DNA of 53,039 nucleotides from Nemertoderma westbladi (taxonomy: Eukaryota > Animalia > Xenacoelomorpha), in assembly GCA_032718475.1 (NCBI GenBank), contig JAUCBJ010008301.1:1-53039 (forward strand), read 5' to 3'. How positions within the stretch are numbered: the stretch's first letter is position 1; each line of letters begins with the position of its first letter. The notes under the pieces were generated by a model. The model worked only from the letters and a program-made list of their open reading frames with translations. It made no database searches and was not told where the DNA came from. The translations under genes and the position numbers were made by a program. This document shows positions 1 to 28,864 of this stretch, in pieces.

Positions 1-168
1 AACCACAGCCACAGCCACAGCCACAACCACAGCCACAACCACAGCCACAGCCACAACCACAGCCACAACCACAGCCACAGCCACAACCACAACCACAGCC
101 ACAGCCACAGCCACAGCCACAGCCACAGCCACAGCCACAGCCACAGCCACAACCACAGACCACAGCCT
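1..168. repeat. (CCACAG/CCACAA)n hexamer array, cut by the window start
   Basis: Tandem CCACAG/CCACAA units seen directly; reverse complement of the array at 1763-2002. Confidence 0.95.
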
Positions 169-271
169 CACCTTCACCCACTTTATTGTCAAATACGCCT
201 GAGAAAAATTCAAGAAACATCTGGTTTACAATAGATTATTCTTTTTTCACAACTCCATTCTAGCCTCCCTC

Positions 272-2158: not shown

Positions 2159-2731
2159 ATCAGCAATAGGCCTAACTATACAAAATGTAGTATTATTGCC
2201 TAGTAACCAATTCATAGCTACCGTATGGTTTTTACTTTGAGACATTTCACCCTCTAGCAGCAGACTCGGATCTTCAGACTACTCTGAGACTCCGCAAAAA
2301 GATATAGCCTATATTGTAATAGATATCGACTGGGGGGTCAAAATTAAGTAATAATATATCTAAAAAAGTCTCAAACATCTTACCTCATGGCTCGCCCCTC
2401 AGAAATCTTAAGCAATATAGCTTCATATTTTTTAAGGAAAACTGGTAAACGAGATTTGTTACTTACGCATACCTCGCAGACTTAAGTAATTAATTATACA
2501 GTAGGTTAGATCGTTTTGAGAGTAGGACCATTGGAAACAGCGCCTTCGAAAACCTCAGTACAAATAAAAGTAATAAGATTAACAGGATATAGCTTGTTAT
2601 AATAAAACTTAAATTATAATACAGTAGAACAATTAGGGTTGTAAATAAAACAAATTCAATAAATTGAAGATAAACTGTATATAACTTATGTATTAAAAGA
2701 GGGCCTTATTTAATTATGCGCGATCAGGCGC

Positions 2732-3984
2732 TGTAAAAGCTTTTGCGTCATTAACCGGTTATTTTCCCTTAAAGTACTCTGTAGTTGGTTTGCCAGGCAT
2801 AAAAAGGCCGTGTCCTTGCTGTACTGGTGTTTTAGAGGACATAAAAGTCATTTCTTCTGTATTTGAACTGTATTTGTACTTTAGAGGACATAATCTGCAA
2901 TTTCATGACGTAAAAAGCTCGATACTCTTGAAAACAGTGTCGCTACCATGACGACGGCTAACGGCTGGTATTGCCACGTTGCAGCTTTCTGTATCTGCCA
3001 ATAGAATTTGAGTTAGCTTTGATTTTGACCTATCACAGAGCTACTGAACTGAAATTTTCCTATCTCACTGCTCTTTCTCTGTGTTGAACGGGAGCTTCGT
3101 GGAATAAGGGTAGCTGGTATTCTTATAGTTATTCTTATCAGTGTTGTTGGTGATTCTAAGCCAGGAAGAACGGCTTTAGAGTATTTTGTGCTTTTCTGCT
3201 TTAGCCCTACACTAGTAGGCTTAATTATAAAGACATATATCCGTTATCTGATGTCTGCATACTGCAGTACTGCATACACTGCATACTGTGTAACACTGTG
3301 CATACTTTTATATTGTTATACTGCTATTTACTGTCAGTTCTTCATAATATGGTTGATGAATTATTATATTTGGAATAACGACAAATAACCCCGAAAACCC
3401 AATATTCTTGATATACCGAAGGTAAGAGAGAAAGGTTACAGATAAATGATTGCGACCTATGTTGAGTGGTTTGAAGTGAATCTAATGTTATTTGATAGAC
3501 CCTACATGATTCGGTCCGTGTTCCTTTTATATGTGACTAAAATCAGTGAAGATCGGCAGATCAGTGTGCAGTATTGTGCAGCATTGTGTATGAGTGAGAC
3601 TGATAACGAAGCATTTCCTAAAGAATGCGCCATATATGTGAATTGTAACTGGGCCATATCGTTGTGAGTAGTTTAAGTCATAACTCTGTTTATATAGATA
3701 GAGCGCCACGTCCTAAAGGAACTGTTAATATTTCCCGAAGGTGAATAATATTGTCAGAGATTATATAATACTGTCAGTCGAATAATACATTAGGCTTACA
3801 TAGCAATAAAATTAAGCCGTCGAACCCAATCTCCCGGGTATATCCAACGGGTGAATGATCGCGCACAGATTGGTTTCGACTAGTGTAGTGAATTAAATAC
3901 TTGTCATAGACTAAAGGTGATTTATTATCTAGAAGACATTCTAATTTGGCGGGTTAAACTGCCAAAGGTCTGAAAGCGCGAACA
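2732..3984 (+). repeat. 5' LTR of copy 1
   Basis: TGTAAAAG...GCGAACA, repeated at offset 9664; about 3 substitutions seen by eye. Confidence 0.95.
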
Positions 3985-3996
3985 ATAACGGATATA
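3985..3996 (+). promoter_or_regulatory. PBS position of copy 1, complementary to LTR 3236-3247 (candidate self-priming site)
   Basis: ATAACGGATATA directly follows the LTR-terminal CA; its reverse complement TATATCCGTTAT is at 3236-3247; no TGG start. Confidence 0.6.
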
Positions 3997-4355
3997 GCTT
4001 CTTTATTGCAGTAAGCAATAAAGTTGAAAGTACCGGTCAACCGGTAAACCTGAACGGTACATCTGTAGGTCAGTAGGCCCAACCGCCAGAACCGGTACTG
4101 CCGTAGGTCAGTAGGCCCAACTGCCAGAACCGGTACTTCTGTAGGTCCGTAGGCCTAACTGTCCCAACCGGTACTTCCCGTATAAGTACATTAGTATTAT
4201 TCGATTTGATAATTATATACCGGTAGGTCTTAATAATTAATCGGGGACGCCTGATTTTTATTGGGATTTTACTTAGGCCTATTTCTGTCAGTTTTATTTA
4301 TTTGTAGGCCAGTATTGAACAGAAGGCGTGTAAACCTGATCAGATTGTACAGACG

Positions 4356-4925
4356 ATTTGTAGGCTGAGCTGTTGTCTGATTGCTGTTAAGTCTGAACGA
4401 ATTGCAGTGTGTGTAGATCATTTGTCCGATTAAGTACGGTTAGGAAGTAGGGGCAGCGAATGCTGTAAGGTAAACCCCCAACTAAAGAATAAGTCGTACT
4501 ACTGGGTTAGAACGCATACTCCCTAATCATTTCGGAGTCTGCATGTCCTGTAGTTTATTTAGGCTTGAGAGTAGTCTGCCATCGTTTAGTCTGTACTTTG
4601 TTTGTGTAAGTCTGTACGGGTAGCGTATAATATTTATTTAGATAATTTGTAGGCTGGATAGTTGTCTGGCTGTTATTAGGTCTGAACGGATTGTAGTGTG
4701 TGTAGAGCCTCTGTCCGATTAAGTACGGTTAGGAAGTAGGGGCAGCCAATGCGGTAAGGTAAACCCCCAACTAAAGAATAAGTCGCACTACTGGGTTAGA
4801 GCGCATACTCCCTAATCATTTCGGAGTCTGCATGTCCTGTAGTTTGTTTAGGCTTGATGGTAGCCTGTCAGTGTTCGGTCTGTATTTTGTTTGAGTAGTT
4901 TGTACGCGTAGCGTAATATTTATTA
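4356..4925 (+). repeat. ~289-bp tandem duplication in the retroelement leader
   Basis: Units start ATTTGTAGGCTG at 4356 and 4645; counterpart in copy 2 at ~25280-25850. Confidence 0.85.
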
Positions 4926-5864
4926 TTCAGAGTTTATGCGATTATTCGCAACATTCATTCCCCAAGTTTGTTCCTACAGTAATTGTGTTTGTTATACATA
5001 CCGCTATAGTTAAATTAACCCCGGTACTACACGGGCTGCTTGGCGTAGGTAAAGACTGGTGATTTTGTGCATCGGTCACTCCAGCAGATGCCGTGGTTCT
5101 TTTAGCTGTTCAAGTATATTTAACTACTGATTATCTGTTGTACAAGTACTCGTACCTAATTTAGGGTTTAGTGTACAGTGCTTTCCGAAAGTAATTAGTG
5201 TAGGCATTATATTTGTGTTGTAAAGTGGTTAATAGGCACGTTCGATTAGCTCTATTAACTTCTAGGTAGGAACACTCCGTGATACATAACGTAGTACCTA
5301 TAGCGATACGGCTATAGGTCGTCAGGCGGTGGTATTTTTCTATCTGGACAACGCAGTGTATTTACTACTACTTATTATTTCAAATACCGCAGTACCCTGT
5401 CCGTTGTAATAACCAGTTTTCTAACCCTTTGTTAGGCTGGTTTGTAGACTTCTTGTAAAATTACCCTAAAAAATTCGTATTTTGTGTTTTTTGTAAATTT
5501 TTGTGTTTATTTAGAGATTGTAATCTCAACCCGAATCGTACGTAATTTGTAGTATTAAGTAACTTAGGTAAATTAGAATTATTTGTTTTAGTGTCCTATA
5601 AGTAACACTTCATTGAAAGCGCACCGCTTTGTGTAGTGATTACTTCCCAGAAATAATAACATTTATTTCAAACATTGACAAAACCCATTAAAACGGGTAT
5701 ATATATATTATAAATCAAATCTAACGATTTATAAATAGTAGGCCTACCATACAACCATTAGGTCTCAATATCAGTTCGATTACTGCTCAAATAACGGTAG
5801 TAAAGTAAGTAAAGTAATCAAGTAACCCTAAAATACAGAAATTCAATTATTTAAAATAATTGAT

Positions 5865-6230
5865 ATACCGGTATTTACGATAGGCCTATTATCTTTATTT
5901 CTATAAATTTCGGCTGAAATTATACCGGTACTTGTAATTAATTCTAGTTTGTAATTATACTTATATATATACACTATAAGTGTAAACTGCATACCGGTAT
6001 TTACGATAGGCCTATTATCTTTATTTCTATAAATTTAGGCTGAAATTATACCGGTACTTGTAATTAATTCTAGTCCAGAATTATATATACTACAAACTGT
6101 AAGCTGTATACCGGTATTCCGATAGGCCTATTATATATTTATATATATTTGTGCTAAAATTATACCGGTATTCTGTGATAAACCTAGTCTGTAATAATAG
6201 TTATATATACTATAAGCATACCGGTATTCT
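5865..6230 (+). repeat. Degenerate ~120-bp repeats with ATACCGGTAT and TAGGCCTA palindromes upstream of gag
   Basis: Repeated ATACCGGTATTTACGATAGGCCTATTAT blocks; copy 2 has one unit fewer. Confidence 0.75.
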
Positions 6231-6362
6231 AATATATTATATATATCACGCTACACTGAGTAGCAGTACCGGTAATTAATTACTAGGCTAGCAGTTAATA
6301 CTGAGTTACTAGACTTGCTCAGACTGTAATACAGCAGTAGACATTCAACTGTACACGTAAGC

Positions 6363-7580
6363 ATGTCGGACACAAAACGGGCACTGTCAGATAGTCTTTT
6401 GGAAGGTGTTAGAATGAGTCTTAGACTTGGACAGGGTCTTGAAAGGAAGATGGCAGAGGCAATGGCAACAGCAGAAGCGGAAAGAAAGGCAGCAGAGGCA
6501 ATGGCAACAGTAGAAGCGGAAAGAAAGATAGAGACACCTGTACTCCCAGAACCTGCCTATAAATTCCCTTTGTACAGTACTAAACTACCTGTGCCCAGTA
6601 GGACTGTTCCCGAGTCCGAACCCATCCTGGACGCCGAGCGAGATATTAAGAATTTATCTCCCGTCGTCTCTCGCTCGCCCGCTACAACGTTGGCGACTCC
6701 CGCTTCGGCGGTTGAGTGGGTAGCTGAGGGACGACGGGAGATGGGTCTCCTGCTCGAGCAGCTGAGGGAACACTGTTTGTGCTCCTCTCAGCAGGTCCGG
6801 GAAATGGAAGAGACTGTCCAGCAGCTCAAGGGAACAGTCAGGGAAAGTAGGTTAGAGTTGCAAAAGGTGCAGCAAAGTATCGCGTTAGAACGCGTTAAAT
6901 TAGTCAATTTACAAAAGGGTATACCACCACCCCCTGTAACAATGTGTCAACCCGTTAGGTCTGAAGTATCTCATGCGCAAGGTGTAGAGCCTACACGCAT
7001 CTATACTGCTAGTGAAGTAGAAACTCCTATAGTAAACCCTATTCAGGATGATTATAAACCTGTTGATAATAATATTCCATATAGACCTGATCATAATCCG
7101 AGAAACTTATATACCGATAATTCTATATTCAATAATACGATGGCTCAAGAAAGTTTTACGCGTCAAATGGCTAGAACCGAAGCTCGGCAAGCGGTAAAGG
7201 TGGGAGAGATCGTCAAGTTCAATGGAGATGAGATGAAATGGTTACCTTTTAATGAATATTACAAAGATAACATACAGAACTCTGTGCTATCTAATGGAGA
7301 GAAACTTAGATACCTCATCGAGTGCTTGGAAGGATCTCCCAAGTTAATGGCGTTAAAATTTATTGGACATCCAGATGGATTAAGACAAGTTTGGGATACA
7401 CTAAACATCAGGTATGGTAATAGGACTAACATAGCTAGGTATTTATATGCGAAATTAATGGCGCCCCGAAAGTTTCTTAGCAGCGGGATCATAGAGTTTT
7501 CCGATGAGATTCAGGAGATCTGTAGACAACTAGATTGGTTAGGTAAGTCTCATGAATACCATTCGGGCCCCACCGTTTAA
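6363..7580 (+). pseudogene. BEL/Pao gag, N-terminal part, internally deleted relative to copy 2
   Basis: KFNGDEMKWLPF...EKLRYLIECLEG...L..RYG resembles the BEL gag (DUF1759-type) region. The ORF ends at a frameshifting ~0.5-kb deletion at ~7561. Confidence 0.85.
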
Positions 7581-7630
7581 ATGCGTGTGATAAATTCCTG
7601 AGGAAATCACTAAAGGATAGACGTGAAGTC

Positions 7631-9334
7631 ATGTGGGATAAGCGGTTGTGTTATAATTGCCTCAGACGAGGACACCAACGGCGAACCTGTAACTCCGACG
7701 CAAGGTGTGCAAAGTGCGGCGCAAAACATCATATCTTGTTGCACACGGAATTCGAACGAAACAGCCCGAGTCAGGTAAGTGAGTCCGAACTACATGTCCA
7801 ATTCAGTGATGTGAACGACACTGATCAATCTGAGATGGAAGGATTCTATACGGACGAATTCTCCGACCAAAGTTCTGAAATGGAAGGATTCTATACGGAC
7901 GAATTCTCCGACCAAAACGAAACCTGTTACCTAATAAACACCACCGCAGTGTATCGAGCACTCGTGCATGAGAAAGACACAGACAGCGACCTTACCTTAA
8001 CTACTTCCGATCAACAACCATCTTGGAAAGCGCCAACTTCCAATATAGGAATCCAAGAATTTCCTGTAGTCCAGTTACGGGTCCACGGACCTCAGAAGAG
8101 CTATATAGTGAACGCCCTCCTGGACTCCGGCAGCACAGGAACATTCATCGATAAAGAACTAGCCGAAGACATCTTTGCTGGACAACCCAAGTTCCGAACC
8201 AAGATAAACATGTCAGGGATCATGCAGGTTTGGAAATCTGCTGTGGCTGCCGACTATTATATAGGTGAGTTGTCCACTCCACAGGATAAACTAGGAGAAC
8301 ACAGTATAAGGTCAGTCAAAATGGTGGCAATAAAGAACTTCGCTACTACTCAAGCAGACCTTTATAATTGGGACGAGGATGAGAGCATCCAACATCTTAA
8401 GATACCTCGATTCCAGACTGATTATCCTGGAGTGCAAATACTCATCGGCCAAAACGCGCATGAGGCGCTGGAGACATTAGAGAAACGACCTACTCAACCG
8501 CAACCACTTCAGACCTATGCGGTAAGAACTAGAGTAGGTTGGTACCTTACTGGACCTTCCCGTAGAACGCTCAGGGAAAGACTGCTTCAAGATCGTGTCT
8601 GCCAGGTGAGTGAATGGGAAGACGATACTAGTGAGGGAGACGACCCAACTGAGGGAACACCACACTCCTCAGATAATGACAATCTTAACTCCAATGTAGA
8701 TCAATGGAGATATTGCCCCAAGACGATGAATACAGCCGACATCTCTTCCAGAGGAACAACTCCTCAAGAACTGACAGATACTACAGACCGGTTAGGTGAA
8801 CCCGACTTCCTGAGTAAGGAGGATGAATGGCCTCCCCATCTTACTCCGACTGAGATTAGACCAGCCAAGAGAGCGGAGAAAGTCAAACCAAAAACCCGGA
8901 CGGGTGGAGCGGAGTTATTTGAACCCGGGATAGATCTGTCGGTATTACATATTGCCAGAGACGACGCCGTGGATCTGAACCTCCCCACCGCGAGTGGATC
9001 CTTCATGAAGATCAAAGAGAGCGATTGGAGCTCTGGAACATCAGACGTCTCGCAGGGACTCTCACCTCTCCTGCAGGGAGCGACGGACCACTATAGCCCC
9101 TGGAATCGGCTTTGTAAGGCCGTCGTGTACCTAGAGCGATGTTTCTATCGTCACTATTCCAGGACGAAGAGGAAACCTGGAATTGTATTCGGGATGCAGC
9201 GACTCAATCACCCAGTCGGTCGTTTGTGTTTACCGGAAGGGAATGGAGGACTCTCCGGAAACTGTGGAAGGCAAGATTCTCTTCCCACGACCACCTCCCT
9301 AATCCTTCAAACATCTAGGGACTCCATAACGTAA
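7631..9334 (+). pseudogene. gag zinc knuckles, aspartic protease and fused pol remnants
   Basis: CYNC-x4-H-x4-C and CAKC-x3-HH..LH knuckles; ALLDSGS protease motif; then directly QWRYCP..N.AD.SSRG...PDFL...WP and WNRLCKAVVYL, which follow RNase H in Pao pol; no YxDD or DDE core. Confidence 0.85.
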
Positions 9335-10642: not shown

Positions 10643-12292
10643 ATGGCCCGAATGTGCGTAGTTGTGACCAGTTGTGTGGTATTTGTGAGTTTATAGGTGA
10701 ATGTTACTGCTAAGGTGTGTTTACAGTAGCTAGTCGCAATCGTAAATGTAACCTAACTGTCCAAGGAAAACCTGAAGTACATCTAAGCCTTTGGGACGGA
10801 CAGTTGAGTGACTTGTGCCGGTTGTCGTTGTCGTTGTGCGGCTACGTCGTTGGCGAAAGTACAGTGGCGACGACACATCGGCGCTGAGGATCTCGTACTG
10901 TCCGGGGGTTGATTGTGGTAGGCAGCGACGCCCGCTCGCCTAAATATAAACTCATTATAATATGGATAAACTCATATATAGCAGATGTGACGGAGTTGAT
11001 AGAAAATGGTCTTGGTATCGGGGAGCGATATACTCTACTTTTACAAGCGTTTGTTGATAGCTTAATACGCGGCGACGTTAGTCCAACTGCTGCGGAGGAC
11101 GATGGTCGTTATATCGAATCGACAATGTCCCAAGTGCAGCTCTCGCGAGAGTTGGACTATAGAAAATTTGCTGCTCGATATACGCAGCGTAATGGTACGT
11201 ATATGGGCTTCTTAACTACTGATCATCCTATCGATTTACACCATACGGACTATGTCGACTATATATCCTGCCCAGCGGAGTCGGAACCATAAATTGAAAT
11301 TCGAATGCGAAAATTCTATTCGAAATCGGCTAAAAAGAAAAGGCATTAACGAAACAAATAAACGCGGTAACTCCAACATATATTTGGAATTCTTGATAGA
11401 AGCATTGTAACAACAAATAAATATCATCCACGTTTCCCCTACCAGACGTGCGTCTTTGGTATTATTATGATAAATGCCCTAGACCCAACTAATAAACGGA
11501 AAGACATAAACATCCACGGAAACGTTATGTTAAACACAGTTGTGCTCGTTATATTTACTGGAGTTTCGAGCGAAACTTGTTTGACGTATCACCTATGCTC
11601 ACTCGGCTCGAACGATCCTGGAGTAAACCTACGATCAGAGTCCCGGAATACTCGGTCAAACCTCCTCATTCCTTAGTTGGACCTCAGACCTGCGATCCTG
11701 GTGGTGTCGCGGATCCTCGCGGACGGTATTCACTGTTCAAGATCTAGTGCTACCCTAACAATTAATCGGTAACACTCCGACAGTGATTTCTAGCTAGCCG
11801 CCCATCTTACCTAGCTGGATTATGACGCAGACACCTAATATCACTATCCAACCGTATGGTCGTCCCGTTTAACGCGATACAACCCTTCATCAAGGTGAAG
11901 GAGAGCGTTGTACGAAACGAGTTAAACGCTATTCTATAAAGATCAAAAAAGAAACCTGCGTTTGTTCAGATAAATGTAAGTTATAACAGTAAGTCCAATC
12001 GATAAACGAATTGGCCTTATCTCAGTTCGATTGGAAAATCTCGAATCTCAAAGAAGATATCGAACTTAAGCAACCCCATTCTCTGCGAGAGTTTTTGGAT
12101 GAACGTATCCAGCTACGAGCGGAGGAAAATCAGCTCGAGGAGAAGCATATCGAAACGGCGGATACCCCGACCATAATCCTACACCTTCTGATGCAATCAT
12201 ATTGTACCCTTCACCCAGGATTTATAGCCCTCCTAGTAAAGAGGCTCGCCCCAAAGAGAAAAGGACTCTTGCTAGCCCCAAAAACTGCGTAA
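10643..12292 (+). pseudogene. Decayed env-like (class I fusion-like) ORF of copy 1
   Basis: Position before the PPT; hydrophobic N-terminus (MARMCVVVTSCVVFVSL); NVT sequons; RTVR|GLIVVG cleavage/fusion-peptide-like motif; Cys-containing middle; hydrophobic C-terminal stretch; many stops and frameshifts. Confidence 0.5.
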
Positions 12293-12395
12293 ACGCCGTC
12301 TGCGTAAGAAAGACTAACTGTTTAGAGTATCTTTATATTTTAGAAACTGTGATTTGTTATATTTTATAGACTTAAATCCCATTTTCTGGGAGCGG

Positions 12396-13648
12396 TGTAA
12401 AAGCTTTTGCGTCATTAACCAGTTATTTTCCCTTAAAGTACTCTGTAGTTGGTTTGCCAGGCATAAAAAGGCCGTGTCCTTGCTGTACTGGTGTTTTAGA
12501 GGACATAAAAGTCATTTCTTCTGTATTTGAACTGTATTTGTACTTTAGAGGACATAATCTGCAATTTCATGACGTAAAAAGCTCGATACTCTTGAAAACA
12601 GTGTCGCTACCATGACGACGGCTAACGGCTGGTATTGCCACGTTGCAGCTTTCTGTATCTGCCAATAGAATTTGAGTTAGCTTTGATTTTGACCTATCAC
12701 AGAGCTATTGAACTGAAATTTTCCTATCTCACTGCTCTTTCTCTGTGTTGAACGGGAGCTTCGTGGAATAAGGGTAGCTGGTATTCTTATAGTTATTCTT
12801 ATCAGTGTTGTTGGTGATTCTAAGCCAGGAAGAACGGCTTTAGAGTATTTTGTGCTTTTCTGCTTTAGCCCTACACTAGTAGGCTTAATTATAAAGACAT
12901 ATATCCGTTATCTGATGTCTGCATACTGCAGTACTGCATACACTGCATACTGTGTAACACTGTGCATACTTTTATATTGTTATACTGCTATTTACTGTCA
13001 GTTCTTCATAATATGGTTGATGAATTATTATATTTGGAATAACGACAAATAACCCCGAAAACCCAATATTCTTGATATACCGAAGGTAAGAGAGAAAGGT
13101 TACAGATAAATGATTGCGACCTATGTTGAGTGGTTTGAAGTGAATCTAATGTTATTTGATAGACCCTACATGATTCGGTCCGTGTTCCTTTTATATGTGA
13201 CTAAAATCAGTGAAGATCGGCAGATCAGTGTGCAGTATTGTGCAGCATTGTGTATGAGTGAGACTGATAACGAAGCATTTCCTAAAGAATGCGCCATATA
13301 TGTGAATTGTAACTGGGCCATATCGTTGTGAGTAGTTTAAGTCATAACTCTGTTTATATAGATAGAGCGCCACGTCCTAAAGGAACTGTTAATATTTCCC
13401 GAAGGTGAATAATATTGTCAGAGATTATATAATACTGTCAGTCGAATAATACATTAGGCTTACATAGCAATAAAATTAAGCTGTCGAACCCAATCTCCCG
13501 GGTATATCCAACGGGTGAATGATCGCGCACAGATTGGTTTCGACTAGTGTAGTGAATTAAATACTTGTCATAGACTAAAGGTGATTTATTATCTAGAAGA
13601 CATTCTAATTTGGCGGGTTAAACTGCCAAAGGTCTGAAAGCGCGAACA
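12396..13648 (+). repeat. 3' LTR of copy 1
   Basis: Near-identical to 2732-3984; followed by TSD GGCGC. Confidence 0.95.
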
Positions 13649-15667
13649 GGCGCGCAGGTTTAAATTAACATATGCGCTCGCATATGCGGTAATTAATGGT
13701 TGTAGTTGGCCTATGTGCGATTGAGGTGATGCTGGCGCGTAAGATGCAAACCGAAGGTTTCCAATCTTACATGATAACGAAGCTAAAGGCTATCAAGGCA
13801 ACATACCAAGGCAGTCCCCACCCACAGCTGGAGGTTTGAATAATTTAAACTCTATCGCAGGTCCCATTCACGCGTTGACGTACAGTATAGGATTGAAGGG
13901 GATTAGTCATACCACATCTAATAAGAGCCCAACGACCGCAGATGTTCGATGGCGTGGGGAGAAGAGGTGTGGGATTGAAGTTGGTATGCGCGAGAAAAAC
14001 TACAGTAACTAGTATAGAGAAGGTTGGGGTTAATTTGAGACATGGTGTTTGGGTATTGCCTTTGTTGTTGAGCTAATGCAACGACCGCAGATTATTGATG
14101 GATGACTCAGGGCCAAACTGGTCCACTTTATTTTCGGGTGAGGGTAATTTATGTTTTGGGTCCCGCTCGTGTCTTTATATTTAATTCTACCTTTACCTAC
14201 TGTATGGCAAAAATAATACAAATGTATTGTATATTATATTGCACAGTGCCTATTGTGTTGTATATTTCGTTTGTTATAGTACAATTTATTCATCTCGCGT
14301 CCCTATCTGATTGATTTGTATCAAATTAAATTGCCTTTGGCAACATTATTTGATACAAATCGATTGATTAAACAATTAATTAATTGTTTAATCGACCAAT
14401 TAATTAATTGATTAATTAATTAATGACCTACTTAACACCCAAGGTGCGAAGTTGGACTAAACTGTCGCCGAGGATGGCATACTATTACTACTGATTATAA
14501 TCGAAAACGGTTTCGAAATATGCAATCAGCGCATCGATATATTGACCAAAAAAGTGTTTTCGGGCAAATTTTTTTTGCGCAAATCACCAAAAATCGACAA
14601 ATCTCGTAAGGGGGGTTTAGCACCGCGATTTTTGGCCAAAAATAAAAAACGCTGAAATTTGGCGAAAAGTTGCGCAAGAATAAATAGTTTAATAAGTTAT
14701 TGGACAGCATTTTCGATAAAAACCATTTTTGGCCAATTGATGGCCAATTTAGTAAAAAAAAATTGGCCCTTTTTTAAAAAGTTTGTCCCCCCTGTGGCCC
14801 CTGAAGATTAATGTTATTTAAAAAAACAATGTATAGCAGATTTGTAGATTTGGAACCCATAGACCAACGGTTCTCGAGATATTGGCTTCCGAAAATTTGC
14901 GTTTCTTTGACAAAAATATAATTTTTGGAGGACAAAAATTTCCGTCGTCCATTTACACCCAGAAGGAAGGTCTTTTAGGCTTAACGTTCTATACGCAGGA
15001 TGTAGTACTTGAGTAGATCTATAAGATATTTGAGTTACAGAAAATTTAAATGATAGGCGCGCGAGAAAATGAAGTTCCCCAAAGTGGTTTTTTTTACGAT
15101 TTCGAGAGTTCCCCCCTTTCCCCCCCTTAAAATTAACCAAGGTCCGGATCTGAAATATCGAGAAAAAACTCTCGGTTTCCCTTCTTTTCTTTCTAACTGT
15201 CCGCATGCAAAATTTCAGTTCGTGAGGTGTATCCCTTATGGGTGCTATAGCGAACTGCGAGACGAATCCTATATATAGGGATGTGTACACATGCTGGTCG
15301 GCCGACTCAGGGTCGGCCTCCATGGTTATCTGTTTTCTATTTTGCGAGGGGCGCGAATCAAACCAGTTCACCTGTAGGCCTACACACTCCCCGGGCTGCG
15401 CTACTTGCCAGACAGTCAGTGTACAGTGTGCATATTTCCAATTGGGGTTACGTTTCTGCCTATGGAGGTATTTCTGGGCTTCTAATTGGTTGTTTCTTCA
15501 ATAAGCTCACCTCATTGGCTAACACTCTCCCATAGCCAAAAGGTGTGCAAAGTTCATCCCAATTGCAAGAAGGGGTGTCGCTTAGGGGAAATCACTTTTA
15601 TTACTTGTAAATTGTACTTAGGCCTGCCTACTCCTCCCGTATTAAACAGGTAAATCACAATTATATT

Positions 15668-16891
15668 TGTTCGCGCTTTCAGACCTTTGGCAGTTTAACC
15701 CGCCAAATTAGGATGTCTTCTAGATAATAAATCACCTTTAGCCTATGACAAGTATTTAATTCACTACACTAGTCGAAACCAATCTGTGCGCGATCATTCA
15801 CCCGTTGGATATACCCGGGAGATTGGGTTCGACGGCTTAATTTTATTGCTATGTAAGCCTAATGTATTATTCGACTGACAGTATTATATAATCTCTGACA
15901 ATATTATTCACCTTCGGGAAATATTAACAGTTCCTTTAGGACGTGGCGCTCTATCTATATAAACAGAGTTATGACTTAAACTACTCACAACGATATGGCT
16001 TAGTTACAATTCACATATATGGCGCATTCTTTAGGAAATGCTTCGTTATCAGTCTCACTCATACACAATGCTGCACAATACTGCACACTGATCTGCCGAT
16101 CTTCACTGATTTTAGTCACATATAAAAGGAACACGGACCGAATCATGTAGGGTCTATCAAATAACATTAGATTCACTTCAAACCACTCAACATAGGTCGC
16201 AATCATTTATCTGTAACCTTTCTCTCTTACCTTCGGTATATCAAGAATATTGGGTTTTCGGGGTTATTTGTCGTTATTCCAAATATAATAATTCATCAAC
16301 CATATTATGAAGAACTGACAGTAAATAGCAGTATAACAATATAAAGTATGCACAGTGTTACACAGTATGCAGTGTATGCAGTACTGCAGTATGCAGTATG
16401 CAGACATCAGACATCAGACATCAGTGTGTAATATGCAGATAACGGATATATGTCCTTATAATTAAGCCTACTAGTGTAGGACTAAAAACTGAAAACACGG
16501 AGGTGCCAAAAGCCGGTTCTTAGGCTCTGGGCAAAACATAACACTGAACTACTGAGTTTCTGTATACACCTCTAACACAGAGACAACAAACGCTCTGATT
16601 GGTCAACCTGAACAACGAGAGAACAAAGAAACAAAGAAACGTCGACGTGGCAATATCAGCTGCTAGCCGTCGTCATGGTAGCGACACTGTTTTCAAGAGT
16701 ATCGAGCTTTTACGTCACGGAATTACGGATTATGTCCTCTAAAGTACAAATACAGAAGAAATAGCTTTTATGTCCGCTAAAACACCAGTACAGCAAGGAC
16801 ACGGCCTTTTTATGCCTGGTAAACCAACTACAGAGTATTTTACGGGAAAAATACGGAAAAATAACCGGACAATTCAGCAAAAGCTTTTACA
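15668..16891 (-). repeat. 3' LTR of copy 2
   Basis: Adjacent to CCGCTCCC (PPT on the minus strand); matches 26138-27375 apart from a 14-bp indel and one substitution seen. Confidence 0.95.
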
Positions 16892-16994
16892 CCGCTCCCA
16901 GAAAATGGGATTTTCAGTCTATAAAATATAAAAATCACAGTTTCTAAAACATAAAGATACTCTAAACAGTTAGTCTTTCTTACGCAGACGGCGT

Positions 16995-18598
16995 TTACGC
17001 AGTTTTTTGAGGCTAGCAAGAGTCTTTTTCTCTTTGGGGGGAGCCACTTTACTAGGAGGGCCATAACTCCTGGGTGAAGGGTGCAATATGATTGCATCAG
17101 AAGGTGTAGGATTGTGGTCGAGGTATCTGCCGTTTCGATATGCTTCTCCTCGAGCTGATTTTCCTCCGCTCGTAGCTGGATACGTTCATCTAAAAACTCT
17201 CGCAGAGAATAGGATCGTCCAAGTTCGATAACTTCTTAGAGATTCTGGATTTCCCAATCGAATTGAGATAAGGCCAATTCGTTTATCGATTGGACTTACT
17301 GTTATAACTTACGTTTATCTGAACAAACGCAGGTTTCCTTTTTGATCTTTATAGAATAGCGTTTAACTCGTTTCGTACAACGCTCTCCTTCACCTTGATG
17401 AAGGGTTGTATCGTGTTAAACGTGGACGACCATACGGTTGGATAGTGATATTAGGTGTCCGCGTCACAATCCGGCTAGGTAAGATGGGCGGATAGCTAGA
17501 AATCACTGTCGGAGTGTTACCGATTAATTGTTAGGGTAGCACTAGATCTTTGAACAGTGAATACAGTCCGCGAGGATCCGCGACACCACCAGGATCGCAG
17601 GTCTGAGGTCCAACTAAGGAATGAGGAGGTTTGACCGAGTATTCCGGGACTCTGATCGTAGGTTTACTCCAGGATCGTTCGAGCCGAGTGAGCATAGGTG
17701 ATACGTCAACAAGTTTCGGTTTACGTGGATGTTTATGTCTTTCCGTTTATTAGTTGGGTCTAGGGCATTTATCGTAATAATACCAAAGACGCACGTCTGG
17801 TAGGGTAAACGCGGGTGACATTTATTTGTTGTTACAATGCTTCTATCAAGAATTCCAAATATACGTTGGAGTTACCGCGTCCATTTGTTTCTTTAGTGTC
17901 TTTTCTTTCGAGTCGATTTCGAATAGAATTTTCGCATTCGAATTTCTGTTTATGGTTCCGACTCCGCTGGGCAGGATATATAGTCGACATAGTCCGTATT
18001 GTGTAAATCGATAGGATGACCAGTAGTTAAGAAGCCCATATACGTACCATTACGCTGCGTATATCGAGCAGCGAATTTTCTATAGTCCAACTCACGCGTG
18101 AGCTGCTCTTGGGACATTGGCGGTTCGATATAACGACCATCGTCCTCCGCAGCAGTTGGACTAACGTCGCCGCGTATTAAGCTATCAACAAACGCTTGTA
18201 AAAGTAGAGTATATCGCTCCCCGATACCAAGACCATCTTCTATCAACTCCGTCATATCTGCTATATATGAGTTTATCCATATTATAATGAGTTTATATTT
18301 AGGCGAGCGGGCGTCGCTGCCTACCCCAATCAACCCCGGACAGTACGAGATCCTCAGCGCCGATGTGTCGTCGCCTCTGTACTTTCGCCAACGACGTAGC
18401 CGCACAACGACAACGACAACCGGCACAAGTCACTCAACTGTCCGTCCCAAAGGCTTAGATGTACTTCAGGTTTTCCTTGGAGAGTTAGGTTACTTTTACG
18501 ATTGCGACTAGCTACTGTAAACACACCTTAGCAGTAACATTCACCTATAAACTCACAAATACCACACAACTGGTCACAACTACGCACATTCGGGCCAT
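16995..18598 (-). pseudogene. Decayed env-like ORF of copy 2
   Basis: Homologous to 10643-12292; GLIGVG variant of the motif; shares early stop codons with copy 1. Confidence 0.5.
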
Positions 18599-19905: not shown

Positions 19906-20540
19906 TTACGTTATGGAGTCCCTAGATGTTTGAAGGATTAGGGAGGTGGTCGTGGGAAGAGAATCTTGCCTTCCACAATTTCCGGAGAGTCCTCCATTCC
20001 CTTCCGGTAAACACAAACGACCAGCTGGGCGATTGAGTCGCTGCATCCCGAATACAATTCCAGGTTTCCTCTTCGTCCTGGAATAGTGACGATAGAAACA
20101 TCGCTCTAAGTACACGACGGCTTTACAAAGCCGATTCCAGGAGCTATAGTGGTCCGTCGCTCCCTGCAGGAGAGGTGAGAGTCCCTGCGAGACGTCTGAT
20201 GTTCCAGAGCTCCAATCGCTCTCTCTGATCTTCATGAAGGATCCACTCGCGGTGGGGAGGTCCAGATCCACGGCGTCGTCCCTGGCAATATGTAATACCG
20301 ACAGATCTATCCCGGGTTCAAATAACTCCGATCCACCCGTCCGGGTTTTAGGTTTGACTTTCTCCGCTCCCTTGGCTGGTCTAATCTCAGTCGGAGTAAG
20401 ATGGGGAGGCCATTCATCCTCCTTACTCAGGAAGTCGGGTTCACCTAACCGGTCTGTAGTATCTGTCAGTTCTTGAGGAGTTGCTCCTCTGGAAGCGATG
20501 TCAGTTGGATTAAACTTCTTGGGGCAATATCTCCATTGAT
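19906..20540 (-). pseudogene. pol remnant (post-RNase H segment) of copy 2
   Basis: QWRYCPKKFNPTDIASRG...SSWNRLCKAVVYL; out of frame with the gag-protease ORF because of an extra CA at ~20575. Confidence 0.8.
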
Positions 20541-23500
20541 CTACATTGGAGCTAAGATTGTCATTATCTGAGGAGTGTGTGGTGTTCCCTCAGTTGGGTC
20601 ATCTCCCTCACTAGTATCATCTTCCCATTCACTCACCTGGCAGACGCGATCTTGAAGCAGTCTTTCCCTGAGCGTTCTACGGGAAGGTCCAGTAAGGTAC
20701 CAACCTACTCTAGTTCTTACCGCATAGGTCTGTAGTGGCTGCGGTTGAGTAGGTCGTTTCTCTAATGTCTCCAGCGCCTCATGCGCGTTTTGGCCGATGA
20801 GTATTTGCACTCCAGGATAATCAGTCTGGAATCGAGGTATCTTAAGATGTTGGATGCTCTCATCCTCGTCCCAATTATAAAGGTCTGCTTGAGTAGTAGC
20901 GAAGTTCTTTATTGCCACCATTTTGACTGACCTTATACTGTGTTCTCCTAGTTTATCCTGTGGAGTGGACAACTCACCTATATAATAGTCGGCAGCCACA
21001 GCAGATTTCCAAACCTGCATGATCCCTGACATGTTGAGCTTGGTTCGGAACTTGGGTTGTCCAGCAAAGATGTCTTCGGCTAGTTCTTTATCGATGAATG
21101 TTCCTGTGCTGCCGGAGTCCAGGAGGGCGTTCACTATATAGCTCTTCTGAGGTCCGTGGACCCGTAACTGGACTACAGGAAATTCTCGGATCCCTATATT
21201 GGAAGTTGGCGCTTTCCAAGATGGTTGTTGATCGGAAGTAGTTAAGGTAAGGTCGCTGTCTGTATCTTTTTCATGAGTGAGTGCTCGATACACTGCGGTA
21301 TTTATCATGTAACAGGATTCGTTTTCGTCGGAGAACTCGTCCGTATAGAATCCTTCCATCTCAGATTGATCAGTGTCGTTCACATCACTGAATTGGACAT
21401 GTAGTTTGGACTCACTTACCTGACTCGGGCTGTTTCGTTCGAATTCCGTGTGCAACAAGATATGATGTTTTGCGCCGCACTTTGCACACCTTGCGTCGGA
21501 GTGACAGGTTCGCCGTTGGTGTCCTCGTCTGAGGCAATTATAACACAACCGCTTATCCCACATGACTTCACGTCTATCCTTTAGTGATTTCCTCAGGAAT
21601 TTATCACACGCATTTATACGGTGGGGCCCGTCGCACAGCACACATTTCGGCTTGATGTTACTTACTTTAACCTGTGCTATGTGGTGCACACTTGTTCTTT
21701 CCTCGGGCTTTCTCACCTGAATTCTTTTAGGAGACGTAGGAAGGGTTTTTTGTACCGGTTCCCTTCTGTCATTGGGTCGAGACTCGGATTTACTTACCTG
21801 ATCTTTAGGCATTTTATTGACATAATAAGATCTGTCAGTGTCTTTCCCGCTGTCCTCTCCTTGAGAAGTTTGGCTTTCACCGTCGTCGGTATAACATACT
21901 GGTGTTACCCTTCTCCTAGAAATGGGTTTCTCACTTACCTTGTTTTCCAATGTCTTCTCTCTGGACTGCCTTAGGAGCTGTAATTTCACTTCTCTATCTA
22001 AGAATGACATGAGATCAGTCATGGTAGGGTCTCGTCGTTGTTGTTCCATCATATATAACACCTTCTTGTCCCAGCGTGTACCTACTCCACCCTTGGGCAA
22101 AGTAGATGCTAAGGCTCCTACAACCATAGAATTCTGGTATTCATGAGACTTACCTAACCAATCTAGTTGTCTACAGATCTCCTGAATCTCATCGGAAAAC
22201 TCTATAATCCCGCTGCTAAGAAACTTTCGGGGCGCCATTAATTTCGCATATAAATACCTAGCTATGTTAGTCCTATTACCATACCTGATGTTTAGTGTAT
22301 CCCAAACTTGTCTTAATCCATCTGGATGTCCAATAAACTTTAACGCCATTAACTTGGGAGATCCTTCCAAGCACTCGATGAGGTATCTAAGTTTTTCTCC
22401 ATTAGATAGTACAGAGTTCTGTATGTTATCTTTGTAATATTCATTAAAAGGTAACCATTTCATCTCATCTCCATTGAACTTGACGATCTCTCCAACCTTT
22501 ACCGCTTGCCGGGCTTCGGTTCTAGCCATTTGACGCGTAAAACTTTCTTGGGCCATCGTGCTATTTAATATCGAGTTATCGGTATATAAATTTATCGGAT
22601 TATGATCAGTTCTATATGGAATATCATTATCAACAGGTCTATAATTACCCTTAATAGGGTTCACTATAGGAGTTTCTACTTCGCTAGCAGTATAGATGCG
22701 TGTAGGCCCCACACCTTGCGCATGCGATACTTCAGACCTAACAGGTTGACACATTGTTACAGAGGGTGGTGGTATACCCTTTTGTAAATTTACTAATTTA
22801 TCGCGCTCTAGCGCGATATTTTGCTGCACTTCTTGCAACTCTAACTTACTTTCCCTCACTGTTCCCTTTAAATGTTGGACAGTCCCTTCCAACTCTCGGA
22901 CCTGTTGGGAGGAGAGTCTCCGATTCTCCTTCATCTCTCCGAGGAGAATATCCATCCCCCGCCGTCTCTCGTCTACCCAATCAACCACCGAAACGGGATC
23001 CGCCAACGTCGTAGCGGGCAGACGAGGGACAACGGGCGACAAATTTGGAATATTTCGCTCTGGGTCCAGGATCTGAACTGTCTCCTGGGCAGTTCTACGG
23101 GGCACAGGTAGCTTAGTGCTATGCAGAGGGAATTTATAGGTAGCTTCAGGGAGCACAGGCGTATCTATTACCGAAGGGGTGATTTCAAGAACAGGCCTAC
23201 TTATTTCAGGCTCATCTACTATAGTAGGGAGTCTTTCTATTGTAATCATTTGGTCTGTGGGTTCTGTACTCTCTAAATTGGTGTTATTTAGTTGCCTTCT
23301 AACAGCTGGAGGCAAATCAGGCAATTTCTGACGGTGGAATGTTCTTTTACGTCTACTTAGACGAGATCTATTTCCCTTGCCTTCAGTATCGGTGGTATCG
23401 CCTTCCTCAGATGATGTATATCCCTGTCTTTTGGGAGTAGATCGATTCATCATCTGCATATTACTAGCTGTTAACTGTTTATTTATGCAGTCTTGATTCT

Positions 23501-23966
23501 CCTGAATGTTTTCCAATTCTAATTGGGTGGTTTCTTCAGTCGCTCTCCGTTCGGCTTCTGCCACTGCCTCCGCCGCTTTTGCCTCTGCCGCTGCCACTGC
23601 CGCTGCCGCTTTTGTTTCTACTTCTGCAGCTGCCACTGCTGCTGCTACTGCCGCTGCCTTTCTGTCTTCTATACGTTTTTTCTTTACTTGTTCTTCCTGG
23701 ACTCGTGTGATGCGGAGTTGTTCATCAAATTTAGCCTGATTCGCAGCCCTCATTTCCACATCGATGGCATCCAACACAAGCTTGGTTCCTTCACTATTAG
23801 GACTAAGTCACTCTAACCTTCTCCTCAACTCGTCATCACCTAAAAAACGTTGATAGTCTGACAGATAGATGTCAATGGCATCCCTCTTATGCGGTTTCTC
23901 TGCCGTCACTTCGCTCTCGGTTGTATCTAGTAGACTGTCTGACAGGTTCTGCTTTGCGTTAGACAT
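20541..23966 (-). CDS. gag-protease polyprotein of copy 2 (homologous ATG at 23966, in-frame TGA at 23810-23808, then 1078 open codons from 23777)
   Basis: Coiled-coil N-terminus, DUF1759-like region, three BEL-type knuckles (CVLCDGPHRINAC; CYNCLRRGHQRRTC; CAKCGAKHHILLH), ALLDSGS. Confidence 0.85.
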
Positions 23967-26126: not shown

Positions 26127-26137
26127 ATATCCGTTAT
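26127..26137 (-). promoter_or_regulatory. PBS position of copy 2, complementary to LTR 26923-26933
   Basis: Minus-strand ATAACGGATAT directly follows the 5' LTR; exact 11-nt inverted match inside the LTR. Confidence 0.6.
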
Positions 26138-27375
26138 TGTTCGCGCTTTCAGACCTTTGGCAGTTTAACCCGCCAAATTAGGATGTCTTCTAGATAATAA
26201 ATCACCTTTAGCCTATGACAAGTATTTAATTCACTACACTAGTCGAAACCAATCTGTGCGCGATCATTCACCCGTTGGATATACCCGGGAGATTGGGTTC
26301 GACGGCTTAATTTTATTGCTATGTAAGCCTAATGTATTATTCGACTGACAGTATTATATAATCTCTGACAATATTATTCACCTTCGGGAAATATTAACAG
26401 TTCCTTTAGGACGTGGCGCTCTATCTATATAAACAGAGTTATGACTTAAACTACTCACAACGATATGGCTTAGTTACAATTCACATATATGGCGCATTCT
26501 TTAGGAAATGCTTCGTTATCAGTCTCACTCATACACAATGCTGCACAATACTGCACACTGATCTGCCGATCTTCACTGATTTTAGTCACATATAAAAGGA
26601 ACACGGACCAAATCATGTAGGGTCTATCAAATAACATTAGATTCACTTCAAACCACTCAACATAGGTCGCAATCATTTATCTGTAACCTTTCTCTCTTAC
26701 CTTCGGTATATCAAGAATATTGGGTTTTCGGGGTTATTTGTCGTTATTCCAAATATAATAATTCATCAACCATATTATGAAGAACTGACAGTAAATAGCA
26801 GTATAACAATATAAAGTATGCACAGTGTTACACAGTATGCAGTGTATGCAGTACTGCAGTATGCAGTATACAGTATGCAGACATCAAACATCAGACATCA
26901 GACATCAGTGTGTAATATGCAGATAACGGATATATGTCCTTATAATTAAGCCTACTAGTGTAGGACTAAAAACTGAAAACACGGAGGTGCCAAAAGCCGG
27001 TTCTTAGGCTCTGGGCAAAACATAACACTGAACTACTGAGTTTCTGTATACACCTCTAACACAGAGACAACAAACGCTCTGATTGGTCAACCTGAACAAC
27101 GAGAGAACAAAGAAACAAAGAAACGTCGACGTGGCAATATCAGCTGCTAGCCGTCGTCATGGTAGCGACACTGTTTTCAAGAGTATCGAGCTTTTACGTC
27201 ACGGAATTACGGATTATGTCCTCTAAAGTACAAATACAGAAGAAATAGCTTTTATGTCCGCTAAAACACCAGTACAGCAAGGACACGGCCTTTTTATGCC
27301 TGGTAAACCAACTACAGAGTATTTTACGGGAAAAATACGGAAAAATAACCGGACAATTCAGCAAAAGCTTTTACA
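26138..27375 (-). repeat. 5' LTR of copy 2
   Basis: 1238 bp; two extra heptamers near 26870-26905 relative to the 3' LTR. Confidence 0.95.
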
Positions 27376-28864
27376 ATATTGTCATATTCACTAATGTTAC
27401 CACACCATTTGTATTGGGTGTAGTTAATTAACAAATACCACTGCCATATATAATTACTGTATATTATGTATTAATTCACAATAATAATTGCTCGAGCCAC
27501 CTACAGTAGTAGCTGAAGTATTTGCAACCTGACAGTGTTGTGTGGGGGGGGGGGGGGGGGGGGGGGGGTGGGGGTGGAGGGTGGGTCAATAAAGGGAAAT
27601 ACTTGTCATTAGTTTTTGTCGCCTTTAACTTAATAACTACTGAGTTTGATTTAAATCTTAAAGTTTGTAATATTTAGACATTAAATACGATCAAAATATG
27701 GGATTTTAGCCACCGCTAGCGGGTGAAATGTCTAAACATTAAACAATCTCGATTCTTACAGTTACAGTATTTGTCAATCGGTTCAAAACCTTGGAATATA
27801 AAAACAATTAACATCATTCGTTTGCAAAAGATTACAAATAATTTTTTAATGTTACTTTCTAAATGTTGCTGATTGGTACAGCAACAGGGTCGTGTGGGCG
27901 CATTGAGGATCCTGGCGCGCATATGGATGTCATGTACAGTAGGAGTAGTAGTGCACTGCAGCACTGGCAACATATCCACTCTACTGTACTTGAAATATAG
28001 CTCTACCAGTATGTTTAAAAAGAGTTAAAAAATTTTCGCTCGCTTCGCTCGCGTTTAAAAGTTTATACTTATACCGGTATTCTACTCATGTCCGTTATTT
28101 TAATATCTATTAGGGTGCTCTATCTGTTTATTTACCTTCATCAGTACATGAGTTGTTTCAAAAGTTTTTCAAATGTTCAAACCATATACAGTAAAACCGC
28201 ATTCTCATGCGCGCTATGCCCTCAATTTAATCTATAATCACATCTGTATTTAGTACGTTGACCTACTCTGACTAATACTGTATTAATGTTAATATTTCTG
28301 TAAAATTTATTTACTCGCTACGCTCGCCTTTTAATGTTAAAATACTGTAGGTCTGCTGCAGTATAAATAAACTGATAAATTATTACAATATAATACAGTA
28401 CCTAATAATTGCAAAATTTCATGGTGAATGGTTGGCGCGCATTGAATGTCATGGCTGGCGCGCTTTTCGTTTTACCAGAACCTGTGTGGCGCGCTGTTTG
28501 TCAATATTCCATATACCTAGGCCGACAGACAGACTGACAGATACCGTCAACCGTATTCAGGTATTGCTGTATTGTCTGTCAGTCCTGCAGTCTGCAGGTC
28601 TGTATTGTTGAAATACTGAAATATAGGCCTGGCTGCCTGGCCTACTGTAACTGCAGAACTGTCAGACTGTAATAGGCCTATCATAATTTCAAATTTCTGA
28701 ATTTAGAAATACGAATAGGCCCTACTTCCCTAAACTTATATATTACCGGCAACCGGTGCCGTATAACAGTATAACAGTACTGCAGTATAAAGTGAGGAAA
28801 TATTATTCAGTTATTACTGTCAGACTGTATTAGAACTACCCTACAGTGTATAAATCCTGAAATC

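What the first reader, a model, noticed from the sequence alone, without database searches (positions are those of the whole stretch)
3236..3996. BEL/Pao-type element with a Tf1-like self-priming layout instead of a tRNA PBS
Seen: the bases right after the 5' LTR are ATAACGGATAT(A), with no TGG complementary to tRNA CCA. Their exact reverse complement lies inside the LTR (3236-3247, 12 nt). Copy 2 keeps an exact 11-nt match (26127-26137 with 26923-26933). The site sits just inside the LTR portion conserved between the two copies. Established: Tf1/sushi-group Ty3/Gypsy elements prime reverse transcription with the first ~11 nt of their own RNA annealed to the PBS. Inference: this BEL family may self-prime, which I do not know to be described for BEL/Pao. 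Caveat: TATAAA at 3226 in copy 1 would imply a start downstream of the site, though copy 2 has TATAAG there.
Basis: partly seen in the sequence, partly recalled or inferred. Interest (0 to 1): 0.85.

Follow-up and report, generated by a model that had tools for sequence, protein, structure and literature searches.

The report
Self-priming BEL/Pao retrotransposon lineage
Two young copies of an animal jumping gene lack the usual tRNA landing site and carry instead 11 bases that pair exactly with a spot in their own terminal repeat, a pairing kept with different letters in related elements, so they likely start copying themselves with a piece of their own RNA.

Summary
Observation confirmed. Two young, non-autonomous BEL/Pao-derived elements (gag and protease kept; RT and integrase not found) have no TGG after the 5' LTR. 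The next 12 (copy 1) or 11 (copy 2) bases are the exact reverse complement of an LTR site; 13 of 20,000 shuffles reach 12. An autonomous relative from the same species pairs its own 10-nt site at the homologous position, with 6 of 10 pairs changed on both sides (its LTR end is inferred). All 8 tested distant relatives with both LTR ends defined lack TGG and match their own LTR over 10-12 nt, 5 only across a GT-AG intron; 2 of 90 cross-pairings reach 10, none 11. Self-priming is the best reading (0.75 for a 5'-end primer). The transcription start is unmapped, a TATA-like motif 11 nt upstream allows a 3'-LTR primer instead, and the Tf1 three-duplex fold is not shown. ICTV describes the family as tRNA-primed; ten literature searches found no BEL/Pao self-priming. 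This scan reported the same signature earlier in BEL/Pao elements of other genomes.

The parts
2732..3984 (+). Copy 1 5' LTR (1253 nt, TG...CA)
   Evidence: 3 mismatches to the 3' LTR; 5-bp target duplication at 2727-2731 and 13649-13653
3207..3247 (+). Conserved island ending at the primer site, between variable U3 and a variable repeat tract
   Evidence: 40/41, 40/41 and 38/41 identical in the two copy 2 LTRs and L001, against 29-39/56 just upstream and 31/53 (L001) just downstream
3214..3236 (+). 23-nt block directly upstream of the primer site, with a TATA-like motif at 3226; role (promoter element) inferred
   Evidence: 17/23 identical to the block directly upstream of the primer site of relative L004; next best in 5.4 kb is 14/23
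3237..3247 (+). Predicted self-primer (11 nt; 12 with 3236 in copy 1 only)
   Evidence: exact reverse complement of 3985-3995; predicted pair probabilities 0.85-1.0, duplex -12.0 kcal/mol
3248..3300 (+). Short-repeat tract that begins at the predicted cut; length and sequence vary between copies
   Evidence: 7 CTG-started units in 75 nt against 1.4 per 75 nt elsewhere in the LTR; L004 has 4 CGG units against 0.09; an insertion directly behind 3247 in a run X1 contig
3805..3810 (+). AATAAA, likely poly(A) signal, 558 nt after the primer site
   Evidence: only AATAAA in the LTR
3859..3981 (+). Predicted U5 stem next to the PBS (3859-3869 with 3969-3981)
   Evidence: pair probabilities about 0.9 in both copies, but 19 of 200 shuffles reach the energy: not established
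3985..3996 (+). Primer-binding site, flush with the LTR end, no tRNA-type TGG
6330..9334 (+). Copy 1 gag and protease (broken), then a short remnant from the end of the RNase H region
   Evidence: DUF1759 E 1.6e-12; triple Cys-His box and LLDSG seen in the ORFs; tblastn with two full BEL proteins hits only gag/protease and about 50 residues near 1273-1365
12384..12395 (+). Purine-rich tract before the 3' LTR (PPT), nearly the same in relative L004
12396..13648 (+). Copy 1 3' LTR; second copy of the primer site at 12901-12911
15668..16891 (-). Copy 2 3' LTR; primer-site copy at 16439-16449
19906..23807 (-). Copy 2 gag-protease ORF (1088 aa between stops) and RNase H-end remnant
   Evidence: DUF1759 E 2.2e-13; homologs carry PF05380, PF03564, PF18701
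26127..26137 (-). Copy 2 primer-binding site (11 nt)
26138..27375 (-). Copy 2 5' LTR; predicted self-primer at 26923-26933

Best explanation
This BEL/Pao-derived element has no tRNA site, the 11 bases after its 5' LTR pair exactly with a site inside that LTR, and it likely primes reverse transcription with that piece of its own RNA, which a helper element's RNase H would cut free. Steps. Shown: the layout, the exact complementarity, its conservation with changed letters in relatives, the loss of RT and integrase in these copies, and the presence of pol-encoding relatives in the same species. Inferred: RNA polymerase II starts at the site (3237) or up to about 25 nt before it; the 5' end folds onto the PBS across a 737-nt R-U5 loop; RT/RNase H supplied in trans cuts at 3247/3248; the new 3'-OH sits opposite base 3985, so minus-strand DNA begins exactly at the LTR's terminal CA. 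Plus-strand synthesis would copy the primer back into the PBS, which would explain why PBS and LTR site change together. The repeat tract that begins at 3248 may record slippage at the cut end of the template (speculative).
For: Match beyond chance. Position 12 of the duplex is lost in copy 2, leaving 11 nt, the Tf1 length (PMC7175516 passage). Relative L004/L002 (gag-protease 45% identical, full pol): PPT, LTR from 914, CA at 1893-1894, then 10 nt that match 1215-1224; 6 of 10 pairs differ from the window on both sides; 38 of 5,000 shuffles reach 10; contiguous cross-matches are 6 and 4 nt; the site follows the same 23-nt block although the LTRs do not otherwise align. 8 of 8 tested metagenome relatives with both LTR ends defined lack TGG and match their own LTR over 10-12 nt; 2 of 90 cross-pairings reach 10 and none 11. 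They and L002 fall in one RT-RNase H clade (FastTree support 0.929), apart from three insect-labelled BEL proteins. In 8 of 10 elements an AATAAA/ATTAAA lies after the primer site and none before it, as in a primer-R-U5-PBS order; one relative has TATATAA 31 nt before its primer start.
Against: No start site, cleavage product or strong-stop DNA was seen. A TATA-like motif 11 nt before the site is kept in all four LTR types; if it is the TATA box, the start is near 3255-3259 and the site is in U3. No TATA lies about 30 nt upstream in the window. In L004 the predicted duplex is fragile: probability 0.79, 0.52, 0 and 0.29 for four choices of RNA ends; its LTR end is inferred from one copy. The Tf1 three-duplex fold is not shown: the U5 stem is reached by 19 of 200 (window) and 14 of 200 (L004) shuffles, and no 3'-flank duplex is shared by both copies. 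One run X1 contig differs at PBS bases 3985 and 3989 and its LTR partner was not seen. Of 7 further loci with only the LTR start known, 3 gave no match of 10 or more. Only one other family of the host species could be read. The metagenome loci were chosen by likeness to L002, and no tRNA-primed BEL with a defined LTR end was in the set as a control.
Confidence: 0.75

Rival explanations
1. Still self-RNA priming, but from the 3' LTR: the TATA-like motif at 3226 sets the start near 3255-3259, the site lies in U3, and the copy at 12901-12911 of the same or a co-packaged RNA pairs with the PBS and is cut to give the primer.
For: TATA-like motif kept at -11 in copy 1, copy 2, L001 and L004; no TATA at -30. 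All covariation evidence fits this too.
Against: The motif decays to TATAAG and TATAGA while the site is kept; the implied start falls in the variable repeat tract; the 8 metagenome relatives have no such motif at -11 and one has a TATA at -31. The cut would remove the R acceptor of the priming RNA, so a second RNA would be needed (inference).
Confidence: 0.15
2. The RNA ends at the site: TATAAA at 3226 acts as a poly(A) signal and the RNA's own 3' end primes.
For: TATAAA lies 16 nt before 3247 in copy 1; an earlier scan note proposes this for other BEL elements (e1-7468529; unchecked).
Against: Copy 2, L001 and L004 lack the hexamer; a canonical signal lies downstream of the site in 8 of 10 elements.
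Confidence: 0.04
3. A host tRNA fragment or small RNA is the primer, and the LTR-PBS duplex only regulates access or dimerisation.
For: Half-tRNA priming exists in copia lineages (PMC6317226 passages). The host tRNA set could not be searched.
Against: Ten elements have ten different PBS sequences, each matched by its own LTR and not by the others'. No tRNA or tRNA-like element in the window.
Confidence: 0.05
4. Chance complementarity or a one-off inverted duplication of the PBS.
For: 4 other internal positions reach 11-12 nt against this LTR.
Against: The match is flush with the LTR end, recurs at the homologous place in L004 with other letters, and in 8 of 8 tested relatives.
Confidence: 0.01

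Closest known systems
Tf1/Tf2 (Schizosaccharomyces pombe), Tj1 and the Tf1/sushi group of Ty3/gypsy chromoviruses
   Same: No tRNA PBS; about 11 nt after the 5' LTR pair with a site inside the LTR. In Tf1 the first 11 bases pair with the PBS and RNase H cuts between bases 11 and 12 (PMC7175516 passage; PMC4600332 passages).
   Different: Different superfamily (BEL/Pao proteins). The loop between primer and PBS is 737 nt. The three-duplex 'pretzel' (bioRxiv 10.1101/2022.12.06.519325 passage) is not shown here. The copies are non-autonomous. Five relatives have the primer split by an intron. Start site unmapped.
Belpaoviridae (BEL/Pao LTR retrotransposons) as described by ICTV
   Same: Gag with DUF1759 and triple Cys-His box, DSG protease, TG...CA LTRs, 5-bp target duplication; relative L002 has RT, PF05380, integrase zinc finger and DUF5641 in BEL order.
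   Different: ICTV gives an 18-nt PBS for host tRNA-Arg or tRNA-Gly (PMC8742986, whole text); here there is none. RT-RNase H is at most 43-45% identical to anything found outside the host. The named subgroup (Sinbad, Suzu, Dan, Flow...) was not determined.
Plant TAR (Ty1/copia) and Tcn1 lineages
   Same: Self-priming predicted from sequence alone (PMC6317226 passages), a precedent for the mechanism outside Tf1/sushi proper.
   Different: Other superfamilies and hosts; no splice-split primers in the passages read.

Membership tests
BEL/Pao (Belpaoviridae) | LTRs with TG...CA ends, target duplication and PPT | tested here: met
BEL/Pao (Belpaoviridae) | Gag with triple Cys-His box and DUF1759; DSG-type protease (PMC554778 passages) | tested here: met
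BEL/Pao (Belpaoviridae) | RT, RNase H, integrase of BEL type after the protease | tested here: not met
   Absent from both window copies apart from a short RNase H-end remnant; present in relative L002. The copies are therefore filed as BEL/Pao-derived and non-autonomous, not as complete members.
BEL/Pao (Belpaoviridae) | 18-nt PBS complementary to the 3' end of tRNA-Arg or tRNA-Gly (ICTV description) | tested here: not met
   No TGG in the 30 nt after either 5' LTR; none directly after the LTR in L004 or in 8 of 8 tested relatives
Named BEL/Pao subgroups (Sinbad, Suzu, Dan, Flow, Pao, BEL, Tas) | Placement with reference elements in a Pol tree | not tested
   No named reference sequences came from the tools; 1 of 20 top hits looked up had an organism name, a limpet. 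The tree has no subgroup references.
Tf1/sushi group | Ty3/gypsy chromovirus Pol | tested here: not met
   Proteins are BEL/Pao type. Works like Tf1, is not a member.
Tf1-type self-priming | PBS flush with the LTR end and complementary to about 11 nt inside the LTR | tested here: met
Tf1-type self-priming | Primer is the 5' end of the RNA | not testable with these tools
   Only assembled contigs of one run were offered; they cannot show a start
Tf1-type self-priming | Three-duplex 'pretzel' fold around the PBS | tested here: inconclusive
   Central duplex predicted; U5 stem predicted but 19 of 200 shuffles match it; third duplex not shared by both copies
Tf1-type self-priming | RNase H cut at the 3' end of the primer | not testable with these tools
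   Indirect only: variable repeats begin at 3248

The most novel reading that the evidence does not exclude
A broad clade of BEL/Pao retrotransposons has dropped tRNA priming altogether and primes with its own RNA, independently of Tf1/sushi. In many of its families the primer exists only after the host spliceosome removes an intron from the LTR, so splicing licenses reverse transcription; this host's lineage is an intron-free form with a 700-nt loop, and non-autonomous copies use it with a helper's RNase H.
Probability: 0.65. Interest if true: 0.82.

Novelty: new variant of a known kind. Interest (0 to 1): 0.68.

Why it matters
How Belpaoviridae start reverse transcription is, by the ICTV profile, poorly understood and assumed to need a host tRNA. 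A self-primed clade would change the family description, add a third superfamily to Tf1-type priming, and point to repeated origins of the mechanism or to an RNase H that cuts RNA-RNA duplexes in BEL elements. It also means PBS-based annotation misses these elements. The claim can be tested with standard RNA-end mapping, because the predicted primer end (3247/3248) is exact. The splice-split primers of the relatives would tie the start of reverse transcription to host splicing.

Tried and rejected
No whole genome is held for the window and the loci of genome B1 are not searchable as records, so no genome-wide family census and no host tRNA search. Sequencing runs: no RNA holder listed; the one run offered is contigs of uncertain kind and shows no start, end or splice joint at the 3422 donor-like motif; this is no evidence either way. 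Three scans of viral contigs found no relative. The genome index did not answer six requests (one search was answered on repeat as 33), so further host families on contigs C6, C7, C9, C11 and C13 and the PBS variant were not read. An unconstrained scan of 43 of the 80 metagenome loci had too much background to use (own 21 of 43, cross 38 of 124). Rows dropped: of 80 loci, 23 had a flanking repeat; 8 with both LTR ends clear were tested; L022 was left out because the alignment overshot its end (it later showed an 11-nt spliced match); 7 with only the LTR start known were tested (4 of 7 reach 10-11 nt; 1 of 42 cross-pairings does; two of the 7 are near-copies of tested families); the other 7 of the 23 were not tested this way. 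An initiator at 3214 was considered; L004 has a purine before that A, so it is weak. Rfam found nothing real in 2700-6400; ARAGORN found no tRNA in the window. The Med31 search showed only that the host is an animal. The ORFs in the 3' region have no credible Pfam match.

Full report
1. Observation. The window holds two copies of one LTR element in opposite orientation. Copy 1 has LTRs at 2732-3984 and 12396-13648 (1253 nt, 3 mismatches) and a 5-bp target duplication; copy 2 has LTRs at 27375-26138 and 16891-15668 and its own 5-bp duplication. The LTR end is fixed by the point where 5' and 3' copies diverge. Bases 3985-3996 are the exact reverse complement of 3236-3247; copy 2 keeps 11 of them. 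There is no TGG in the next 30 nt of either copy. In 20,000 order-2 Markov versions of the LTR, 34 give 11 nt or more and 13 give 12 or more; 6 of 8,381 internal positions reach 11, two being the real site.

2. What the element is. Gag carries DUF1759, a triple Cys-His box and is followed by an LLDSG protease; its homologs are BEL/Pao polyproteins. Two full-length BEL proteins hit the first 41 kb of the window only in gag/protease and in about 50 residues at the end of the RNase H region: RT and integrase are missing, so the copies are non-autonomous, yet their near-identical LTRs show recent movement. The host is an invertebrate. A short-contig assembly of the same species (B1) holds 12 or more related stretches. 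One (L002) has gag, protease, RT, RNase H and integrase, with an assembly gap in RT.

3. Conservation within the family. A third LTR version (L001) and copy 2 differ strongly from copy 1 upstream of 3207 (29-39 of 56 identical) but keep 3207-3247 (38-40 of 41); L001 diverges again right after (31 of 53). From 3248 on lies a tract of short repeats that start with the bases following the site; its length differs between copies and even between the two LTRs of copy 2, and a contig of run X1 has an insertion directly behind 3247. L004 has a comparable tract. This marks 3247/3248 as a boundary; reading it as slippage at a cut template end is inference.

4. Covariation in the same species. Reading upstream of L002 (L004) gave a PPT almost the same as the window's, a TG at 914, and at 1895, after CA, 10 bases that are the reverse complement of 1215-1224. 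The LTR end is inferred, since only one LTR copy is on the stretch read. Six of the ten pairs differ from the window's on both sides (register taken from the PBS start). 38 of 5,000 shuffles reach 10. The site follows a 23-nt block 17/23 identical to the window's 3214-3236, the best match in 5.4 kb (next 14/23), while the LTRs otherwise show no significant alignment. So a homologous position carries different, self-matched letters.

5. Distant relatives. A metagenome scan gave 80 loci, 37-45% identical in RT-RNase H. 23 had a flanking repeat and 8 had both LTR ends clear. None of the 8 has TGG at the LTR end. All match their own LTR over 10-12 nt within 0-4 nt of the end: 3 contiguously, 5 only across a GT-AG intron. 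I tested spliced joints because earlier notes of this scan reported them in other genomes; those notes are leads, not support. In the 10 x 10 matrix (8 relatives, window, L004) own matches are 10-12 nt, while 2 of 90 cross-pairings reach 10 and none 11. Of 7 more loci with only the LTR start known, 4 reach 10-11 nt, against 1 of 42 cross-pairings; 3 gave nothing. An unconstrained scan was too noisy. In an 88-sequence FastTree of RT-RNase H (matches shorter than about 300-330 residues left out) L002 lies on a long branch in a clade (support 0.929) with all 8, apart from aphid-, moth- and wasp-labelled BEL proteins; the sample was chosen by likeness to L002 and has no named subgroup references.

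6. Folding. For RNA from 3237 the duplex is predicted with probabilities 0.85-1.0 (-12.0 kcal/mol), and it also forms if the RNA starts at 3200. In L004 it depends on the ends chosen (0.79, 0.52, 0, 0.29). A U5 stem next to the PBS is predicted in both window copies but is matched by 19 of 200 shuffles; a third duplex is not shared by the copies. The Tf1 'pretzel' is therefore not shown.

7. Where the RNA starts. Not measured: no RNA holder was listed and the one run is contigs. A TATA-like motif lies 11 nt before the site in all four LTR types, as TATAAA, TATAAG or TATAGA; none lies at -30. If it is the TATA box the site is in U3 and the primer must come from the 3' LTR (rival, 0.15). Against this, the motif decays while the site is kept, the 8 relatives lack it at that place, one has TATATAA at -31, and 8 of 10 elements have a poly(A) hexamer after the site and none before. 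Tf2 is reported to have a downstream default start and an upstream start that includes the self-primer (PMC5341516 passages), so two starts are possible.

8. Mechanism. Most likely (0.75): transcription from the site or shortly before it, fold-back over 737 nt, a cut at 3247/3248 by a helper's RNase H, and minus-strand synthesis from the LTR's terminal CA. Any form of self-RNA priming: about 0.94. Shown: layout, complementarity, covariation, non-autonomy. Inferred: start, cut, priming, helper.

9. What is known. Tf1 self-priming with an 11-nt primer: PMC7175516 (passages), PMC4600332 (passages), bioRxiv 10.1101/2022.12.06.519325 (passages). Predicted self-priming in plant TAR and Tcn1 lineages: PMC6317226 (passages). 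Belpaoviridae primed by tRNA-Arg or tRNA-Gly: PMC8742986 (whole text). Word searches of the main texts of the BEL/Pao surveys PMC3118150, PMC6238403 and PMC8556966 found no mention of primer, PBS or tRNA; PMC554778 (passages) and PMC8220671 (passages) do not describe a BEL PBS; PMC3601003 and PMC13524379 (passages) gave nothing on BEL priming. Ten searches (listings only, apart from the papers named) showed no report of BEL/Pao self-priming. The library lacks most subscription papers, among them the original Tf1, Tf1/sushi and early BEL papers, and I read no supplements or GyDB/Repbase entries, where such a note could stand. From recall only, a C. elegans BEL-type element was proposed to encode its own tRNA-like primer; one search did not find it.

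10. Verdict. A real feature, best read as Tf1-like self-priming in a BEL/Pao clade: it works like Tf1 but is no member of that group. New variant of a known kind. The scan has reported the same signature in BEL/Pao elements of other genomes; this window adds another host lineage, an intron-free long-loop form, a non-autonomous family and an independent cross-controlled test on metagenome loci. Interest 0.68.

Noticed in passing
L020, L021, L032, L074, L081 (metagenome loci, LTRs): The PBS matches the LTR (11-12 nt) only across a 77-186 nt GT-AG intron with a near-consensus donor; 4-6 primer bases lie before the intron. Splicing itself was not observed.
   Followed up: partly
window 3244-3247; L004 1221-1224; eight metagenome LTRs: 9 of 10 predicted primers end in A plus a pyrimidine although the rest differs; possibly a cleavage or initiation preference.
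   Followed up: no
window 3985 and 3989 (run X1 contig): One contig (depth 16.6 of 22.3) differs at two PBS bases; its LTR partner was not seen and 23 rows of the table were hidden.
   Followed up: partly
window 2732-3206, 26980-27375; L001: Three mosaic U3 versions join the same R-U5 just upstream of the conserved island, like the U3 mosaicism described for fission-yeast Tosmo elements.
   Followed up: partly
window 3422-3427: Strong splice-donor-like motif inside the LTR, downstream of the primer site; no joint seen in the one run.
   Followed up: partly
window 10888-11292 and 11993-12292 (+); 17950-18429 and 16840-17235 (-): Open frames of 99-159 aa in the 3-kb region before the 3' LTR, kept in both copies, without a credible Pfam match; possible accessory genes.
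   Followed up: partly
window 2732-27375: The two copies lie tail to tail, 2,019 bp apart, forming a 25-kb near-palindrome; each has its own target duplication, so they are separate insertions.
   Followed up: yes
L003; L002/L004: Pol-encoding relatives in the same species (L003 about 70% DNA identity to copy 2 over 1.8 kb, with RT pieces in two frames; L002 with an unusually long Gag N-terminus) are candidate helper families.
   Followed up: partly
window about 41700-52000: GC-rich tandem array with a 30-bp period and long open frames on both strands.
   Followed up: no
window 28796-32836 (+), 40595-41308 (+), 36647-37585 (+): Host genes UTP25 and Med31, and an endonuclease/exonuclease/phosphatase-family ORF, perhaps from a LINE.
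   Followed up: no
window 1-181 and 1757-2003: Inverted arrays of short repeats flanking about 1.6 kb with an internal 283-bp duplication; possibly a foldback or DNA element.
   Followed up: no
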